Shown in pieces: positions 3,001 through 12,000 of a DNA stretch of 64,000 nt (position 1 is its first letter; each line of letters begins with the position of its first letter). This stretch comes from Phycisphaerae bacterium (GTDB taxonomy: Bacteria; Planctomycetota; Phycisphaerae; UBA1845; Fen-1342). Made by a program: the position numbers. The stretch covers positions 1-64,000 of the forward strand of contig CAXXWX010000006.1 in assembly GCA_963675745.2 (NCBI GenBank), in the 5' to 3' direction.

Positions 3001-6000
3001 GCCTGTCCAAGGTGGTTCACAACAGGCGCGCCGCGGCCGTCGAACGGCCGTGCCCGGCGGTTCAAAGGGTCCCCAGATCGGCCGCTAGCACCGCGTGGTA
3101 TTCGGCTCCGGTCGGTTTGAGGCGGCTCTCGAAGAGCGTCACGTGACTAACAACCATGCTGTGCGGGCCCGGCGGCGGCAGCCGTTCCAACTGCTCGCGC
3201 ATGATGTTACCACCCCGCCGGCGACTTGGCGCGGCCCAGCGTCACGTGGGGCGAAAACGCGCGGTCTTCACGGGCAAACCCGAGATCGCCCAGCAGCGGG
3301 TCGGCGAGCTCCAGCCAACGGCGACAACCCTGGGTCTCGTCACGAATTCCACACCAGAGCACGCGCGGCCGGCGCGGATCGGGAAACGCGCCGAATGTCT
3401 CCAGCCCGATCTCAAACGGCGCGACCCGCGCGGATGCGGCTCTTATGACCGCGCACACCGGTTCGATATCCGCCGGCTCCACATCGCCCAGGAACTTCAG
3501 CGTCACGTGCAGTTGGCGTTCCGTACACCAGCGCACATCGCGCGTGCGCGGAAACTCGTCACGCAATAGCTTGACCAACGGCCGGCGCGTGGCGGTGTCA
3601 AGCTCGACGGCAATGAAGCAACGCATGGTCAATCTTCGGCCGACGGTTTCGGGCGCAGGCTGGCAAGCACAAGTCGTGCCTGCTCAAAGTCGCCGCGATG
3701 CACAAGAATGCTGACTTCGCCGGGGGCCTCGGCCCGCAGCCCGGAGGTCAGACCGCCGATCATCTGTGCCTTGATACCCGTGTCGTCCAGCGCCGCGATG
3801 AGAATGGCAGCCTCCCCTTCTGTCGGAACAGTTGTGAGCACGACCGGGTCATCGGGCCTCTCGCTCATTGTTCTACCTCCCACCGGCTCACCGGTGTGCC
3901 GCGACTCACTCGAAGCGTGACATCGCCGCCAGGGCGGAGAGACGCTCGTCAATATCGGCGGCCGTCACGGCGGCGGACGCGTCCACCGAGAATGACTCGA
4001 TTACATATGACGCCACCACCGAACCGCGGGCCATGGCGGCACGCAGTGTTGGGCCGTCATAGCGCCGGGCGGCGTCGAGATACCCCATCATGGCGCCGGC
4101 GAAACTGTCCCCACAGCCCGTCGGATCGACCAGCTTGGTTGTCGGATAAGCCGGCAACACGAACAGGTCATCTTCCGAAACCAGCATGCTGCCATGCTCG
4201 CCCTTCTTGATCACCACGAAGCGCGGCCCCAGCTTCAGAATGTCGCGGGCCGCCGTCAGCAGGCTGCTTTGGCCGGTCAGCATGCGCGCCTCGGCATCAT
4301 TGAGCACCAATCCGTGTACAACGCCCAGAGTCTTCTTGAGTTCGTCCGGCTCACCTTCTATCCACAGATTCATCGTGTCGCAGACAATCAACGCCGCACT
4401 CGGGAACTGGAGGGCCACTTCGCGCTGCAACGCCGGATGGGTGTTGGCCAGAAACACGCACTCGCTGTCGCGGAATTCGTCGGGGATTTTCGCGCCGGCT
4501 TCGGTCAGGACGTTCAGGCGCACATCCAGCGTTTCCGCCTCGGCCATTGTGCCCACGTATTTGCCGTGCCAGCGAAAGGTCTGACTCCCCGCGCGCACCT
4601 CAATGCCGCTCAAATCGATCGATGGACGCCGCAGCGGCTTGAACATCTCCATATCGAAATCGTCGCCCACAACACCAACAACACGGACATGTGTGAAGTG
4701 TGAGGCGGCCAGCGCAAAATAGACCGATGACCCGCCGAGAGCATCGGCGGCCTTGCCGATCGGCGTCTCCAGCGTGTCGAGGCCGATCGAACCGGTAACG
4801 AGCAGGGACATCTTCAAGCCCTCGTATCGCGAATCCAGTGGAATTTGTCAGTATCGCAGGGTATCGCACCCGGCGCCCGCTGGCCATACCGGCGGCGCGG
4901 CGGTTCTTCGCGATGGGGCCCTGGATCAGTGCCGCAAGCGTCAGCAACCGGCTCGATCTCGTGGACTCTGAGCGGATCGCGCCGGCGGCCCCCACCCCAA
5001 TCCGGCCCCCGCTTCTGATTCCTTGCTTTGCGTGCTATACTGGCCGCGTGGATTCATGTCGAATCGCAGTTGGCACAACCCGCGTCGCGACAGTGCCGGT
5101 GCGCACGTCGGTCGGGCTGCGCCGTATCAGGCCAATATGTTGAGCGCGTTCGCCGTTTCCGCGCGCGTTGTCGCGCGCCTGGCGACGTCACTTGGAGAGA
5201 GCCGCTTATGACAACCGAGCTACTGCTGGGCGACGAGGCGATCGCGCATGCGGCGGTGCATGCCGGCATCGCCGGTGCCTTCTCATATCCCGGGACGCCC
5301 TCCACCGAGATCTTCGAGACAATTGCCGCCATAACCAAGGGGACCGGCAAGGTCTTCGCCCGCTGGTCGGCGAACGAGAAGGTCGCGTATGAAGAAGCGC
5401 TCGGCATGTCATACGCCGGCAAACGCGCCATCGTCACCATGAAGCACGTCGGGCTGAATGTCGCCGCCGACCCGTTCATCAACTCGGCCATCACCGGCGT
5501 CAACGGCGGTCTCGTGCTGTGCGTTGCCGACGACCCCGGCATGCACTCGTCGCAAAACGAGCAGGACAGCCGTTTTTACGGAGAATTCGCCAAAATCCCC
5601 GTCTTCGAGCCCTGCGGCCAGCAGGAAGCCTATGACATGACGCGCCTGGCCTTTGAGCTCTCCGAGGAGCTCAAGCTGCCGGTCATGATCCGCATTGTCA
5701 CGCGCCTGGCCCACAGCCGCGCGAATGTGACTTACGATCTTGATAGCGCCATCGAGCAGCACGGCCCCCTGCCGCCACCCGATCCCAACGATTGGACGCT
5801 CGTGCCATCCAATGCGCGCCGCCGGTTCAAGCACCTGCTTGACTTGCAGCCGCGCCTGCGCGAATTCTCCGAACAGGCTCCGCAGAACATCCTGACGCTC
5901 GCGGGCCGGCGCGGGATCATCGCCTCGGGCATCGCATACAACTACGTGCGCGAGGCTCTGGGCGGAACCGACGACGATTCTCTGCTCAAAATCTCGGTCT

Positions 6001-9000: not shown

Positions 9001-12000
9001 GGCTCAGCAACCTCCAGACGCTGGATCCGGCACTGGCTATCTCGATCGGCAATCAGATCGACCTGACCGTCGCCGACCTGCTCACCGCCGTCGGCAAGCG
9101 TGATGACATTGACGCGATCGGCGTTTACATGGAGGGGTTCGCCAGTCTCGACGGCCTCGACTTCCTGCGCGCGGTCGAGTCCGTCACCGCCGCCGGCAAA
9201 TCCGTCGTCTTTTATAAGGCCGGCCGCACCGAAACGGGACGATCGGCCGCCGCGGGACACACGGCATCGGTCGCCGGCGACTACGACATCTGCATGGCCG
9301 CCGCCGAGCACGCCGGCGCCATCGTCGTCGAAACCTTCAAGGAGTTCGAGCAGATGCTCGAACTCGCCACATACGTGCACGACAAGAAGATCGGCGGGAC
9401 GCGACTGTTCGCCATGTCCAACGCCGGCATGGAAACCGTCGGCATGGCGGATTCGATCCGCGGCGCGCGCTATGAGGTCTCGATGAAAGCGCTGTCAAAG
9501 GAGCTGCGGGCGGACCTCGTCAAGGTGCTGCGCACCCACAAGCTCGACCAGCTCGTCAACGCCCGCAACCCGCTCGACGTTACGCCGATGGCCGACGAAT
9601 CGGCTTACCTCGATATCGTGCGCCTGATGGTCAAGAGCGATGAGATGGACGCCCTGATCGTCTCCTGCGTGCCGCTGACCCCACGGATGCTGACCACGCC
9701 GGACGAAATCACGAAGCCCGAGTCGCTGATCCACCAGTTGCCGGCGCTCTTCAAGGAGTGCCCCAAGCCGCTGGTGTTTGTCGCTGATTCCGGACCGCTT
9801 TATGACCCGCTGGCGGCGGCGATTCGCGAGGCCGGCGTACCGGTCTTCCGCTCAGCCGACCAGGCGGTACGCGCCCTCGGGCGCTACATCTACCAGCGCG
9901 CCATGCGACGACGTTCAATCCCAATCACCAGCGACCGTAACCACGTCGCCTCGGAGATCATCAACAACACCGCCACGAACGCAACCGACAAGACGGTGCA
10001 GAAGACATCCTGACCACACCGCACGCTTTCGCGCAGCGGCCGACCCCCAAGTCGGCCGTTGTCGCTGTGCGTTACTGAAACGGCTGACACTGGGGGAGGC
10101 GGATGCGTGACACTTCGGGCGGGTAGCGCTTATGCCTGGAGGTAGGAAACGCGTTCCATATCCGGGCGTGCAGAGTGCGTGGCCGGGAGCCGGCGTTTGT
10201 CGGCTTCAGCCGACCGGTCATTGCCACCAGTCGCAACTGGTGGTGCCGGACGCCGCCGCCCTCGCGGTCCTTCAGAGCCGGGCTTCAGCCGACTTCTCGC
10301 AATGCCGTTGGAAGCCCGGCTGAAGCCCGGCTATGTGTGCAGGGGAATCCAAGTAGCCTCTGATCCACCAACTGAAGTTGGTGGCAACGGTTGGTCAGCT
10401 GAAACCGACCGGCGGCCGCGAGGCGCCAATTCAACTGGTCACTCGCCCGCCTGAGGCATCACGCGCCCGGCGATGGCCGCTACGCGGATCACTCCCGATC
10501 GTAGTCATGTGCCGATGTATCTTGCGTAGATCGCCCGGGCCGTTGCGATGTCGCTGGTGCCTTTGATGATCGCGCGACCGTCGCGGAAGAGTGTTACTTC
10601 ACATTCGTCCACGCGAAAACGCAACAGGAAGTTGTTAAACGCCGGACTCGGCGCTGATCCAAGGCGGCCGGCCAGTGCCTCAAAATCGACCTGGACCGTT
10701 GCGGGCGGCATCACCTGCACCGCGTTTCGGCCGCACAAGATGGCAGACGTCGAGACCTGGCCACCCTGAAGAAAGGCGTACTCCCCAGCGCCACAGCACG
10801 GGCAGGCGTCGCCGGCGCCTTCGCGGGCGATATCCATCGCGTGCCAGCGTCCGCTCCACACATCAACGCTGACCAGCTTGCGATTGAGAGCGTCAGTGCG
10901 ACCACTGAGGATTTTGAGCGCCTCGGCCGCCTCCAGGCTAGCGACCACGTTGACGATCGACGCCAGCACGCCCGCTGATTCGCAGGTCTCGGTGCTGCCG
11001 GGCGGCGGTGCATCGGGCCATACGCAGCGCAGACACGCCGTCCGGCCGGGCACGATCGGCATCACGCGCCCTTCCGATGCGATACACGCGCCGTAGATCC
11101 AGGGAATCTCGTGCTTGACCGCCACATCATTGACCAGGTAACGCGTCTCGAAGTTGTCGGTGCCGTCCAGGATCAGGTGCGCCCCCTGGCAGAAACGTTC
11201 GATGTTGGCCGGGTTGGCGTCGGCGATGATCGGCTCAACCGTCACGCCCGAATTGATGCGCCGCAGCTTGCGGGCCGCCGCCTCGGCCTTCGGCAGGTTG
11301 CCGGCCGCGTCGTCTTCGTCGAACAACACCTGGCGTTGAAGATTGTCCAGCTCGACAAAGTCGCGATCGACGATGCGCAGGAAACCCACGCCGCCGCGCA
11401 CCAGCGTATTGGCCAGCACCGAGCCCAACGCACCGCACCCGATCAACGTAACGCGTGAGGCGAGCAAACGCCGCTGCCCATCCGCGCCGATGGGCGCAAA
11501 GCACATCTGCCGGGCATAGCGCGCCAGGTTGTCAGCACTATTCGTAGTCATGGGGTCGCGGCGCGACGCCGCGCGCGGCTTGAGCCATGCACTCCAGCGT
11601 GACCAGGCGTTTCGCGCCGAACTGCCATTGACAATGCCGAAGATGATCAGCAACACGCCCTGCATATCCCCATATACGAGCCAGACGGCCCCCACACCCA
11701 GGCACAGCACCGTCGCCACGCCGGCAAGCATGGCATCCAGCGCCGCGGCGAATCCCACCTTGGCCAGGTCCAGGCCGGCAACCACCAGCAACCCGATGCC
11801 AACGATGCGCGCCCCCCAGACCAGCGCGGTGACCGATCCATCGTAGATCGCATTGCCGCTCACCCCAACCAGACCCAAGCCAAACCCGACGTACAGAAAC
11901 AGCAGCGCCGCGACCAGTGACCAGATCGCCGAGCCACCGTCGTGCGCGGGCGTATACTGCACTCCCGGCGGTCGTTCAGGTTGCATTTCAGGCACGTCGA

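What a model noticed while it worked through the whole genome (the two positions that open the first line are those of the whole stretch)
5208..10013. IorB fused to a complete ADP-forming acyl-CoA synthetase: a two-gene arylpyruvate-to-arylacetate + ATP module
g00785 (1024 aa) joins the beta subunit of indolepyruvate:ferredoxin oxidoreductase (POR domain, res 11-186) to a whole ADP-forming acyl-CoA synthetase (ATP-grasp_5 252-491, CoA_binding_2 516-648, Succ_CoA_lig 674-809), directly downstream of iorA (g00784). The enzyme that makes aryl-acetyl-CoA is thus covalently tied to the enzyme that turns acyl-CoA into acid + ATP, the two steps that Pyrococcus performs with separate IOR and ACS II. 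The fusion predicts substrate-level phosphorylation from aromatic amino acid/2-oxoacid fermentation in this anaerobe, and tells which acyl-CoA synthetase serves IOR.
Evidence so far: pfam.tsv and swissprot.tsv rows of g00784/g00785: IorA 39% to A. fulgidus IorA; g00785 NCBIfam 'indolepyruvate oxidoreductase subunit beta' plus 25-30% identity over res 254-971 to ADP-forming acetate/3-hydroxypropionate-CoA ligases. One ORF, no stops. 772 relatives with E<=1e-3; the 120 listed are 973-1062 aa, 62-74% identical over >=92% of the query and all carry PF01558+PF13549+PF13380+PF13607 on one chain; sources name them only 'indolepyruvate oxidoreductase subunit beta' (Planctomycetota, Acidobacteriota, Deltaproteobacteria and others).
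(Added by a program. Inside this text positions count along the whole contig: contig position 1 is position 1 of the stretch shown here. "Call 12" and the like, gene names such as g00115 and contig names such as C1 are that model's own, and its searches are not shown. The text may have been shortened before it was handed on; [...] marks where a part breaks off. The agent that wrote the report below was given it as the finding of a first reader that could run no searches.)

Follow-up and report, generated by a model that had tools for sequence, protein, structure and literature searches.

The report
IOR beta subunit fused to ACD
Two adjacent genes encode a 2-oxoacid oxidoreductase of the indolepyruvate type whose small subunit is fused to a complete ATP-yielding acyl-CoA synthetase, a widespread but undescribed coupling of two consecutive known steps, found mostly in bacteria that can also respire oxygen.

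Summary
iorA (5208-6845, +) is followed after 93 nt by one 1024-codon ORF (6939-10013, +) with no stop. It joins an IorB/POR-gamma domain to a complete ADP-forming acyl-CoA synthetase (ACD) in beta-alpha order. Both ACD catalytic histidines are invariant in 52 of 52 aligned relatives. The fold model matches a solved ADP-forming 3-hydroxypropionyl-CoA synthetase (TM 0.83-0.84) and OorC.

The pair is a self-contained module. 46 of 59 related loci carry the fusion, 43 of them with iorA just upstream, and no other neighbour is conserved. Spirochaetota keep iorA-iorB-acd as separate adjacent genes. Two distant fused lineages exist.

- Every IorA of this family lacks the C-terminal two-cluster ferredoxin domain.
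- The host is not shown to be an anaerobe. Haem-copper oxidase genes occur in 10 of 11 fusion-bearing genomes examined.

Most likely function: 2-oxoacid to acyl-CoA to acid plus ATP. Aromatic substrates are probable but unproven, and direction is inferred. Eight full-text searches found no description of the fusion. Verdict: new variant of a known kind, moderate interest.

The parts
5208..6845 (+). iorA: alpha subunit of an IOR-type 2-oxoacid:acceptor oxidoreductase (545 aa). It carries domain I (POR_N) and the TPP/cluster domain (TPP_enzyme_C) and has no C-terminal ferredoxin domain.
   Evidence: Pfam finds POR_N 14-176 and TPP_enzyme_C 379-510. TIGR03336 gives 513.8 bits, matching profile positions 2-558 of 595. 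Profile positions 533-595 hit ferredoxin-like parts of other genes in the genome instead. 33 of 33 aligned orthologues keep C352, C355, C382, C517 and the GDSTF...DN motif at 423-452.
6846..6938 (+). 93-nt intergenic spacer between iorA and the fusion gene. AGGGA lies about 8 nt before the GTG.
   Evidence: Read in the sequence. No terminator-like site lies in the spacer. In 43 related loci the gap between the iorA and IorB matches is 11-703 nt, and in 42 of them it is at most 255 nt.
6939..7589 (+). IorB part of the fusion (residues 1-217): OFOR domain III (gamma-type, CoA-binding domain) plus a helical extension at residues 192-217 specific to this family.
   Evidence: Pfam POR 11-186. NF005324 gives 263.7 bits against a cut-off of 222. 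GVGGQG at 9-14 is invariant. The model matches OorC with TMt 0.84-0.85. Helices 172-197, 202-211 and 214-217 appear in the model.
7590..7652 (+). Flexible linker, about residues 218-238.
   Evidence: The model shows no secondary structure here and pLDDT of 58-59, below 50 at residues 227-233. This is the least conserved stretch of the alignment.
7653..8438 (+). ACD beta part (ATP-grasp, residues about 239-500), with the second catalytic histidine H313 in VHKSD.
   Evidence: Pfam ATP-grasp_5 252-491. It aligns to 4xyl_B at E 1.6e-17. H313 and K314 are invariant in 52 of 52.
8439..10013 (+). ACD alpha part (CoA-binding, Succ_CoA_lig and C-terminal domains, residues about 501-992), followed by a disordered tail at 993-1024 and the stop codon. 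The phosphohistidine is H774 in GHTAS.
   Evidence: Pfam CoA_binding_2 516-648 and Succ_CoA_lig 674-809. TIGR02717 covers 512-982. SQSGA 679-683 and H774-T775-A776 are invariant and G773 nearly so. The loop at 763-778 has low pLDDT, as expected for a swinging loop. TMt to 4xz3_C is 0.90.

Best explanation
The two genes encode one enzyme complex. IorA pairs with the IorB domain of the second protein to form an IOR-type, TPP-dependent 2-oxoacid:acceptor oxidoreductase with a single [4Fe-4S] cluster. This oxidatively decarboxylates a 2-oxoacid to its acyl-CoA and passes two electrons to a separate ferredoxin or flavodoxin. The substrates are most likely phenylpyruvate, 4-hydroxyphenylpyruvate and indolepyruvate, made by transamination of aromatic amino acids.

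The ACD half is tethered by a linker of about 20 residues to the CoA-binding domain of the oxidoreductase. It converts the acyl-CoA with Pi and ADP into the free acid, CoA and ATP, through acyl-phosphate and two phosphohistidines (H774, then H313). CoA is regenerated next to the site that consumes it.

Net reaction: 2-oxoacid + ADP + Pi + 2 oxidised acceptor -> acid + CO2 + ATP + 2 reduced acceptor.

Shown here: gene structure, domain completeness, conserved catalytic residues, the conserved two-gene unit, and absence of the ferredoxin domain.
Inferred: complex formation, substrate, direction, CoA cycling or channelling, and the electron acceptor.
For: Fusion and completeness.

Catalytic residues (52 of 52 relatives): H313, K314, S679-A683, H774, T775, A776 and G9-G14 are invariant, and G773 is nearly invariant.

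Fold: mean pLDDT 81.6 and pTM 0.76. The whole ACD part superposes on 9y43 over 763-765 columns with TMt 0.83-0.84. The N-terminus matches OorC.

IorA: four invariant Cys and the TPP motif in 33 of 33 orthologues.

Linkage of the two activities:
- 46 of 59 related loci are fused in frame, and 43 of these have iorA directly upstream.
- No other conserved neighbour was found.
- Three Spirochaetota loci have iorA-iorB-acd as adjacent separate genes.
- Fused forms sit in at least three places of the ACD tree, and all have N-termini of the NF005324 type.

Aromatic link: locus L058 has a class I/II aminotransferase, iorA, iorB and a PaaK-like AMP ligase next to each other, with an ACD 3.7 kb away.

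Dedicated enzyme: the genome has a separate 721-aa alpha-beta ACD.

Fate of the product: no PaaK was found (best 46 bits against a cut-off of 646), so the arylacetate would be an end product.

Literature:
- The aminotransferase -> OFOR -> NDP-forming ACS route is the Thermococcales paradigm (PMC11921379, passages read).
- IOR and VOR clusters lie near ADP-forming ligases in Peptostreptococcales, and a ligase next to an OFOR acts on phenyl-, hydroxyphenyl- and indoleacetate (PMC13285125, sections 2.7, 2.8 and Discussion read).
Against: No biochemical data exist for any member.

IorA scores below the IOR_alpha equivalog cut-off (513.8 against 650.9) and lacks the ferredoxin domain of characterised IorA. 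Substrate specificity therefore cannot be transferred safely.

The ACD part is far below the cut-offs of all named ACD equivalogs (207-224 bits against 567-1300).

No aminotransferase, ferredoxin or transporter is conserved next to the module.

The hosts mostly have aerobic respiration, where substrate-level ATP from this step matters less.

ACDs are reversible, and the nearest solved structure is named a synthetase.

Stand-alone close relatives of the ACD part occur without any IOR within 8 kb (L027, L048).
Confidence: 0.58

Rival explanations
1. Same coupled chemistry (2-oxoacid -> acyl-CoA -> acid + ATP), but the physiological substrates are not aromatic. They could be branched-chain or other 2-oxoacids, or a broad range. 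In that case this ferredoxin-domain-less 'IOR' subfamily is misnamed.
For: IorA is below the equivalog cut-off and lacks a domain of characterised IorA. OFOR specificity does not follow family clustering reliably: HpdDEFG acts on hydroxyphenylpyruvate but clusters with VORs (PMC13285125, Discussion read). No aromatic-specific neighbour is conserved.
Against: The best-scoring families for both parts are IOR alpha and beta by a wide margin: 513.8 bits against at most 114.5 for any other, and 263.7 bits. The genome has two further OFOR loci for other 2-oxoacids. The related Spirochaetota cluster has a PaaK-like ligase and an aminotransferase.
Confidence: 0.2
2. The module runs in reverse as a salvage route. 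Arylacetate + ATP + CoA gives arylacetyl-CoA, which is reductively carboxylated with reduced ferredoxin to arylpyruvate and then transaminated to an aromatic amino acid. This is what is proposed for methanogens and Bacteroides, with an ADP-forming activating enzyme in place of an AMP-forming one.
For: Both enzyme types are reversible. IOR is proposed to be anabolic in methanogens and Bacteroides (PMC13285125, Discussion read). The closest solved relative, with the same beta-alpha order, is named 3-hydroxypropionyl-CoA synthetase. That it works physiologically in the activating direction is my recollection, not taken from any call.
Against: The genome has chorismate synthase and prephenate dehydratase and further shikimate genes in the window, so salvage is not needed. 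Anabolic IORs described so far sit with AMP-forming ligases, which pull towards the CoA ester (PMC13285125). Reductive carboxylation needs low-potential ferredoxin, which is scarce in oxygen-respiring hosts.
Confidence: 0.12
3. The ACD-like half is not a synthetase. It could be a regulatory or differently catalytic domain, as in PatZ-type acetyltransferases or the DddX DMSP lyase, which share the fold.
For: PatZ and DddX are among the structural and sequence matches. This shows that the fold has been recruited for other roles.
Against: There is no GNAT or other extra domain. Both catalytic histidines, the SQSG motif and the GPN motif are invariant. The best matches, over the full length, are true ADP-forming CoA ligases.
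Confidence: 0.04

Closest known systems
IOR plus ACS II of Pyrococcus/Thermococcus (aminotransferase -> indolepyruvate:ferredoxin oxidoreductase -> NDP-forming acyl-CoA synthetase)
   Same: The same two consecutive reactions and the same two protein families. The scheme is confirmed from passages of PMC11921379. The aryl-CoA preference of ACS II is recalled from Mai & Adams 1996, which I did not read here.
   Different: In Thermococcales the enzymes are separate: IorA carries a two-cluster ferredoxin domain, and the ACS is an alpha2beta2 enzyme of two polypeptides. Here IorB, ACD-beta and ACD-alpha are one chain, IorA has no ferredoxin domain, and the hosts are bacteria that mostly carry oxidase genes.
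OFOR gene clusters with an adjacent ADP-forming acyl-CoA ligase in Peptostreptococcales (PMC13285125, 2026)
   Same: Genomic linkage of IOR/VOR-type OFORs to PF13607 ligases. One such ligase is active on phenyl-, hydroxyphenyl- and indoleacetate.
   Different: In that study they are neighbouring genes in strict anaerobes. No fusion is mentioned in the passages and sections I read.
Nitrosopumilus maritimus 3-hydroxypropionyl-CoA synthetase (ADP-forming), PDB 9y43
   Same: Best sequence match (E 1.2e-45, collinear over residues 272-975) and best structural match (TMt 0.83-0.84). It has the same beta-alpha domain order on one chain.
   Different: 22-23% identity. It has no oxidoreductase domain. 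The window protein scores 201 bits against a cut-off of 1300 for that equivalog.
Two-subunit OFORs lacking domain V (for example Sulfurisphaera tokodaii OFOR)
   Same: Only the TPP-proximal [4Fe-4S] cluster is present and the ferredoxin is external. [quoted passage not shown]
   Different: A different OFOR subfamily and domain arrangement. Those enzymes have domain III at the N-terminus of the alpha subunit and are not fused to an ACD.

Membership tests
Indolepyruvate:ferredoxin oxidoreductase (IorA/IorB) | Alpha subunit with OFOR domain I and the TPP-binding domain VI on one chain | tested here: met
   POR_N 14-176 and TPP_enzyme_C 379-510. The GDSTF...DN motif at 423-452 is invariant in 33 of 33 orthologues.
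Indolepyruvate:ferredoxin oxidoreductase (IorA/IorB) | Four Cys for the TPP-proximal [4Fe-4S] cluster | tested here: met
   C352, C355, C382 and C517 are invariant in 33 of 33. Their role as cluster ligands is inferred by analogy to other OFORs.
Indolepyruvate:ferredoxin oxidoreductase (IorA/IorB) | C-terminal 2x[4Fe-4S] ferredoxin domain on IorA (canonical enzymes; positions ~540-595 of TIGR03336) | tested here: not met
   The match stops at profile position 558 of 595. Positions 533-595 hit other ferredoxin-like genes in the genome. All orthologue tails end 15-40 residues after the conserved RRxC motif, and the window's CxxCxxC is present in only 3-18% of rows.
Indolepyruvate:ferredoxin oxidoreductase (IorA/IorB) | Curated NCBIfam equivalog cut-offs | tested here: inconclusive
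   The IorB part passes (NF005324, 263.7 against 222). IorA fails (TIGR03336, 513.8 against 650.9).
Indolepyruvate:ferredoxin oxidoreductase (IorA/IorB) | CoA-dependent oxidation of indole-, phenyl- and hydroxyphenylpyruvate | not testable with these tools
   Needs an enzyme assay.
NDP-forming acyl-CoA synthetase (ACD) superfamily | Full domain set: CoA-binding, Succ_CoA_lig, C-terminal alpha domain and ATP-grasp | tested here: met
   Pfam domains. TIGR02717 alpha covers 512-982, and NF045494 covers 259-983 of the protein against 2-659 of 665 profile positions. Fold TMt is 0.83-0.90.
NDP-forming acyl-CoA synthetase (ACD) superfamily | Phosphohistidine on the alpha swinging loop and a second histidine in beta | tested here: met
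   H774 (GHTAS) aligns with SHTG of 9y43. H313 (HKSD) aligns with HKSD of 4xyl_B. Both are invariant in 52 of 52. The identification of these as the catalytic histidines is recalled from the ACD literature.
Named ACD equivalogs (acetate-, 3-hydroxypropionate-, 4-hydroxybutyrate-CoA ligase) | Score above the curated cut-off | tested here: not met
   207.3 against 1200, 201.4 against 1300, and 168.4 against 1300. It is a member of the superfamily, not of these named enzymes.

The most novel reading that the evidence does not exclude
The module may be an oxygen-compatible, single-cluster IOR hard-wired to an ACD, working as a CoA-recycling machine that turns indolepyruvate and phenylpyruvate into the auxins indole-3-acetate and phenylacetate with a gain of ATP. 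It would then be the unrecognised indole-3-pyruvate route to IAA in plant- and alga-associated Armatimonadota, Acidobacteriota and Planctomycetota.

IAA production has been measured in an Armatimonadota isolate in which none of the known IAA pathways is complete (PMC12524902, passages read). Whether that isolate carries this module was not checked.
Probability: 0.15. Interest if true: 0.7.

Novelty: new variant of a known kind. Interest (0 to 1): 0.45.

Why it matters
Annotation. Public annotation names these proteins of about 1000 aa only 'indolepyruvate oxidoreductase subunit beta', or 'hypothetical protein' in Zixibacteria. An ATP-yielding step is therefore invisible in metabolic reconstructions of Phycisphaerae, Fimbriimonadales, Acidobacteriota, Myxococcota and others.

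Pairing of enzymes. The fusion is a Rosetta-stone link that assigns a large family of beta-alpha ACDs to IOR-type oxidoreductases. It also gives a natural single-complex system for asking whether CoA and acyl-CoA are channelled between an OFOR and an ACD.

Physiology. The single-cluster IorA in oxidase-bearing hosts suggests that ferredoxin-linked amino-acid oxidation with substrate-level phosphorylation is not confined to strict anaerobes.

Products. If the substrates are aromatic, the products (phenylacetate, indoleacetate) are signalling molecules for plants and animals.

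Tried and rejected
- Conserved neighbours. Clustering the ORFs of 59 loci plus the window found none besides iorA. 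My crude ORF caller also produced antisense artefacts in this GC-rich DNA.
- Promoter and terminator scan: 0 promoter-like sites, and 2 terminator-like sites inside the fusion gene, which is no more than in shuffles. Uninformative.
- RNA evidence: no RNA holder listed. Three DNA or unknown-type runs of one study hold the stretch.
- Literature. Eight searches found no paper that describes an IorB-ACD fusion. One further search failed on term syntax and was not repeated. The library lacks most subscription journals, and supplements were not consulted.
- Cys-rich tail of the window's IorA (CxxCxxC at 532-538) as a replacement cluster site: rejected, because it is present in only 3-18% of 33 orthologues.
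- Stand-alone ACDs as the ancestors of the window's clade. In the quick tree L027 and L048 nest inside the fused clade, which suggests secondary separation or duplication. The careful tree search did not finish, so only SH-aLRT support from the quick tree is available.
- Complex prediction: not run. IorA plus the whole fusion exceeds the size limit.
- L045 and L049, first labelled 'alone', are fusions or ACDs cut by the contig end.

Full report
**1. Observation**

The window has about 64% G+C around the locus. Two same-strand ORFs occupy 5208-10013.

iorA. The first ORF could start at TTG 5028, but orthologues align from the ATG at 5208. GGAGAG lies just upstream of that ATG. This gives a 545-aa IorA ending at 6845.

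Fusion gene. After 93 nt, with AGGGA before the start, a 1024-codon ORF runs from GTG 6939 to the stop at 10013 without interruption. Pfam places the domains as the finding says:
- POR at 11-186
- ATP-grasp_5 at 252-491
- CoA_binding_2 at 516-648
- Succ_CoA_lig at 674-809

NCBIfam calls the N-terminus IorB (NF005324, 263.7 bits, cut-off 222). It aligns residues 259-983 end to end with single-chain ADP-forming CoA ligases, though far below their cut-offs.

Database statistics were reproduced. 772 proteins reach E<=1e-3 among the 7999 candidates scored. 120 are listed, including the window's own protein. They are 973-1062 aa and 62-74% identical, and all have the four domains.

**2. Is the ACD half intact?**

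Sequence matches to solved structures:
- The best is the N. maritimus 3-hydroxypropionyl-CoA synthetase (ADP-forming), 9y43 (E 1.2e-45). It is collinear over residues 272-975, so it has the same beta-then-alpha order.
- The alpha and beta chains of the Korarchaeum ACD1 (4xyl) match residues 511-987 and 248-481.

Catalytic residues:
- GHTAS (H774) aligns with SHTGS of 9y43.
- VHKSD (H313) aligns with VHKSD of 4xyl_B.
- In an alignment of 52 family members (A1), H313, K314, SQSGA 679-683, H774-T775-A776 and the GxN of the GPN motif (641-643) are invariant, and G773 is nearly so. The GVGGQG motif of the IorB domain is invariant too.

Fold model from that alignment: mean pLDDT 81.6 and pTM 0.76. 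Low-confidence stretches are the expected mobile ones:
- residues 227-233, in a coil at 218-238 between the two halves
- the histidine loop at 763-778
- the tail at 993-1024

Foldseek:
- The ACD part superposes on 9y43 over 763-765 columns (TMt 0.83-0.84).
- It matches ACD1 alpha with TMt up to 0.90.
- The N-terminus matches the OorC gamma subunits (TMt 0.84-0.85).

The ACD half is therefore complete and looks catalytically competent.

**3. The oxidoreductase half**

IorA has POR_N and TPP_enzyme_C. It matches IOR_alpha (TIGR03336) much better than any other OFOR family, but only over profile positions 2-558 of 595 and below the cut-off (513.8 against 650.9). In the same genome, positions 533-595 of that profile hit ferredoxin-like parts of other genes. 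The missing piece is therefore the two-cluster ferredoxin domain.

All orthologues retrieved end 15-40 residues after a conserved RRxC motif. Among 33 aligned orthologues:
- C352, C355, C382, C517 and the GDSTF...DN motif are invariant.
- The CxxCxxC in the window's tail is present in only 3-18% of rows.

This IOR subfamily therefore has one cluster site, like the two-subunit OFORs without domain V (PMC13768988, passages), and must hand electrons to a separate carrier. No solved IOR structure was found by sequence search.

**4. Context and distribution**

Neighbours in the window are unrelated: a PfkB kinase and a cytidylyltransferase upstream; ThiF-family, MBL-fold, DUF3754 and beta-lactamase-family genes downstream.

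A scan of GTDB species genomes gave 59 related loci. They break down as follows:

| Arrangement | Loci | Notes |
|---|---|---|
| IorB and ACD contiguous in one frame | 46 | 43 have iorA 11-703 nt upstream; the other three (L024, L025, L051) have too little upstream DNA or are fragments |
| iorA-iorB, then ACD in another frame 72-146 nt on | 3 | Spirochaetota: L050, L052, L054 |
| ACD 3.7 kb from iorB | 1 | L058: aminotransferase, iorA, iorB and a PaaK-like AMP ligase in a row |
| Split over several frames | 1 | L055 |
| ACD only | 8 | four have 8 kb of upstream DNA without IOR genes (L027, L048, L053, L056); four are cut close to the contig end |

Clustering all neighbouring ORFs found no other conserved gene.

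The carriers are mostly Phycisphaerae and other Planctomycetota, and Fimbriimonadales (Armatimonadota). There are single Solibacteraceae and Myxococcota loci. Two 'archaeal' bins look mis-binned.

In a sample of 151 genomes of the window's class, the full fusion was found in 6, all of the window's order. A close ACD-only relative was found in 2 more.

**5. History of the fusion**

In a quick ML tree of the ACD parts, all fused forms of this group fall in one clade (SH-aLRT 100) apart from the unfused Spirochaetota genes. L027 and L048 lie inside that clade. The window's protein is sister (99) to the Armatimonadota sequences, which suggests transfer between phyla.

An exhaustive search of 50%-identity representatives gave these results:
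- 1332 proteins at E<=1e-30.
- Most of the best 150 are stand-alone beta-alpha ACDs of about 730-800 aa, 34-58% identical.
- Two distant fusions turned up, P0137 and P0156. P0137 is 941 aa, 38% identical, with a linker of only about 15 residues. P0156 is 951 aa and 35% identical.
- Both have an N-terminus of the NF005324 IorB type.
- P0137's cluster includes a Zixibacteria protein named 'hypothetical protein'.

In a second quick tree these two sit in well-supported clades of stand-alone ACDs. Starred branches force at least 3 gains or losses of the fused state. Repeated joining or separation of the same two partners is strong evidence of a functional link. Both trees are quick searches with SH-aLRT support only.

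**6. Physiology of the host**

| Feature searched in the genome | Result |
|---|---|
| Haem-copper oxidase subunit I | present, 484 bits |
| [FeFe]-hydrogenase-like gene, in a cluster rich in ferredoxin-like domains | present |
| Other OFOR loci | two |
| Other ACD-type genes | a 721-aa alpha-beta ACD and a 960-aa open frame |
| PaaK | not found (46 bits against a cut-off of 646) |
| Chorismate synthase and prephenate dehydratase | both present |

COX1 was also found in 4 of 5 fusion-bearing relatives of the window's order. It was found in 5 of 5 other carriers: three Fimbriimonadales, one Solibacteraceae and one Phycisphaeraceae. That makes 10 of 11 genomes including the window's.

'This anaerobe' is therefore not supported. 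The hosts look facultative or aerobic, possibly using the module when oxygen is limiting.

**7. Mechanism proposed**

IorA plus the IorB domain form the oxidoreductase, which makes acyl-CoA. The tethered ACD converts it to the acid plus ATP and returns CoA beside OFOR domain III, the domain that binds CoA (PMC13768988, passage). Complex formation, CoA cycling and direction are inferred, not shown.

Aromatic substrates are the best guess, for three reasons:
- family similarity
- the Spirochaetota cluster with an aminotransferase and a PaaK-like ligase
- published OFOR-linked arylacetate ligases (PMC13285125)

Against this, the subfamily is divergent and unassayed.

**8. Comparison with what is known, and novelty**

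The chemistry is the Thermococcales amino-acid fermentation scheme (PMC11921379). Gene clustering of OFORs with ADP-forming ligases was noted in 2026 (PMC13285125).

Eight full-text searches found no description of any of the following:
- the covalent IorB-ACD fusion
- its single-cluster IorA
- its occurrence in oxidase-bearing phyla

The library lacks most subscription journals.

I rate it a new variant of a known kind. It is useful for annotation and offers a natural system for studying channelling, but the mechanism is predictable. Interest 0.45.

The boldest reading still open is an unrecognised indole-3-pyruvate route to auxins in plant- and alga-associated bacteria. It is prompted by IAA production without a complete known pathway in an Armatimonadota isolate (PMC12524902, passages) and was not tested here.

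Noticed in passing
window 6750-6845 (IorA residues 515-545): The window's IorA tail carries C-x14-CxxCxxC. A few relatives (L007, L008, L010, L011, L022) also have Cys-containing tails, but the motif is not conserved: 3-18% of 33 rows.
   Followed up: yes
L015 (labelled Methanoregulaceae archaeon) and L017 (labelled uncultured archaeon): Both carry the bacterial module. L015 is almost identical to the Fimbriimonadaceae locus L013, with end branches of 0.026 each. This is probably mis-binned bacterial DNA rather than an archaeal occurrence.
   Followed up: partly
L055:6314-11001 and L017:2493-4051: The matches to iorA and, in L055, to the fusion gene are split over two or three frames. These are either pseudogenes or indel errors of the assemblies.
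   Followed up: no
L058:277-10232 (Spirochaetota): The cluster reads aminotransferase class I/II, iorA, iorB, PaaK-like AMP ligase (AMP-binding + AMP-binding_C_2), GntR regulator, radical SAM protein, then a beta-alpha ACD. An AMP-forming and an ADP-forming ligase lie at one IOR locus.
   Followed up: partly
L027:7992-10241 and L048:7872-10355 (Phycisphaerales): Stand-alone ACDs 56-61% identical to the ACD part of the fusion, with no IOR genes in the 8 kb upstream. In the tree they nest inside the fused clade. Whether iorAB lies elsewhere in those genomes was not checked.
   Followed up: partly
L051:7920-8393 (bin labelled Enterobacteriaceae): A fragment at the contig end matches only residues 163-319 of the fusion, at 62-74% identity. 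About 7.9 kb of DNA lies upstream, but the first 162 residues are not matched. It may be a chimeric contig or a truncated gene.
   Followed up: no
window 31086-33119 (-) and 54896-56203 (-): A 677-aa ORF joins type I dehydroquinase to shikimate dehydrogenase behind an unassigned N-terminal stretch of about 165 aa. EPSP synthase lies 22 kb further on. These are aromatic amino acid biosynthesis genes in the same window, but they are not adjacent to the IOR module.
   Followed up: no
window 19784-29396 (-) and 36067-45874: A Tad/Flp pilus gene set (TadB/C-like, T2SSE ATPase, TadG-like VWA protein, secretin, RcpC). A second set of type IV pilus / type II secretion genes follows (secretin, TPR protein, pseudopilin, PilN, PilM, T2SSF, T2SSE).
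   Followed up: no
window 10505-11995 (-) and 12015-12962 (-): A 496-aa ThiF-family protein whose ThiF domain starts only at residue 160, next to an MBL-fold hydrolase. Both are convergent with the fusion gene.
   Followed up: no
G000:C28:10321-17793: Three neighbouring open frames (506, 632 and 590 aa) have ferredoxin-like domains, and the first also has an [FeFe]-hydrogenase large-subunit domain. They may be a multimeric hydrogenase that could take up electrons from ferredoxin.
   Followed up: no
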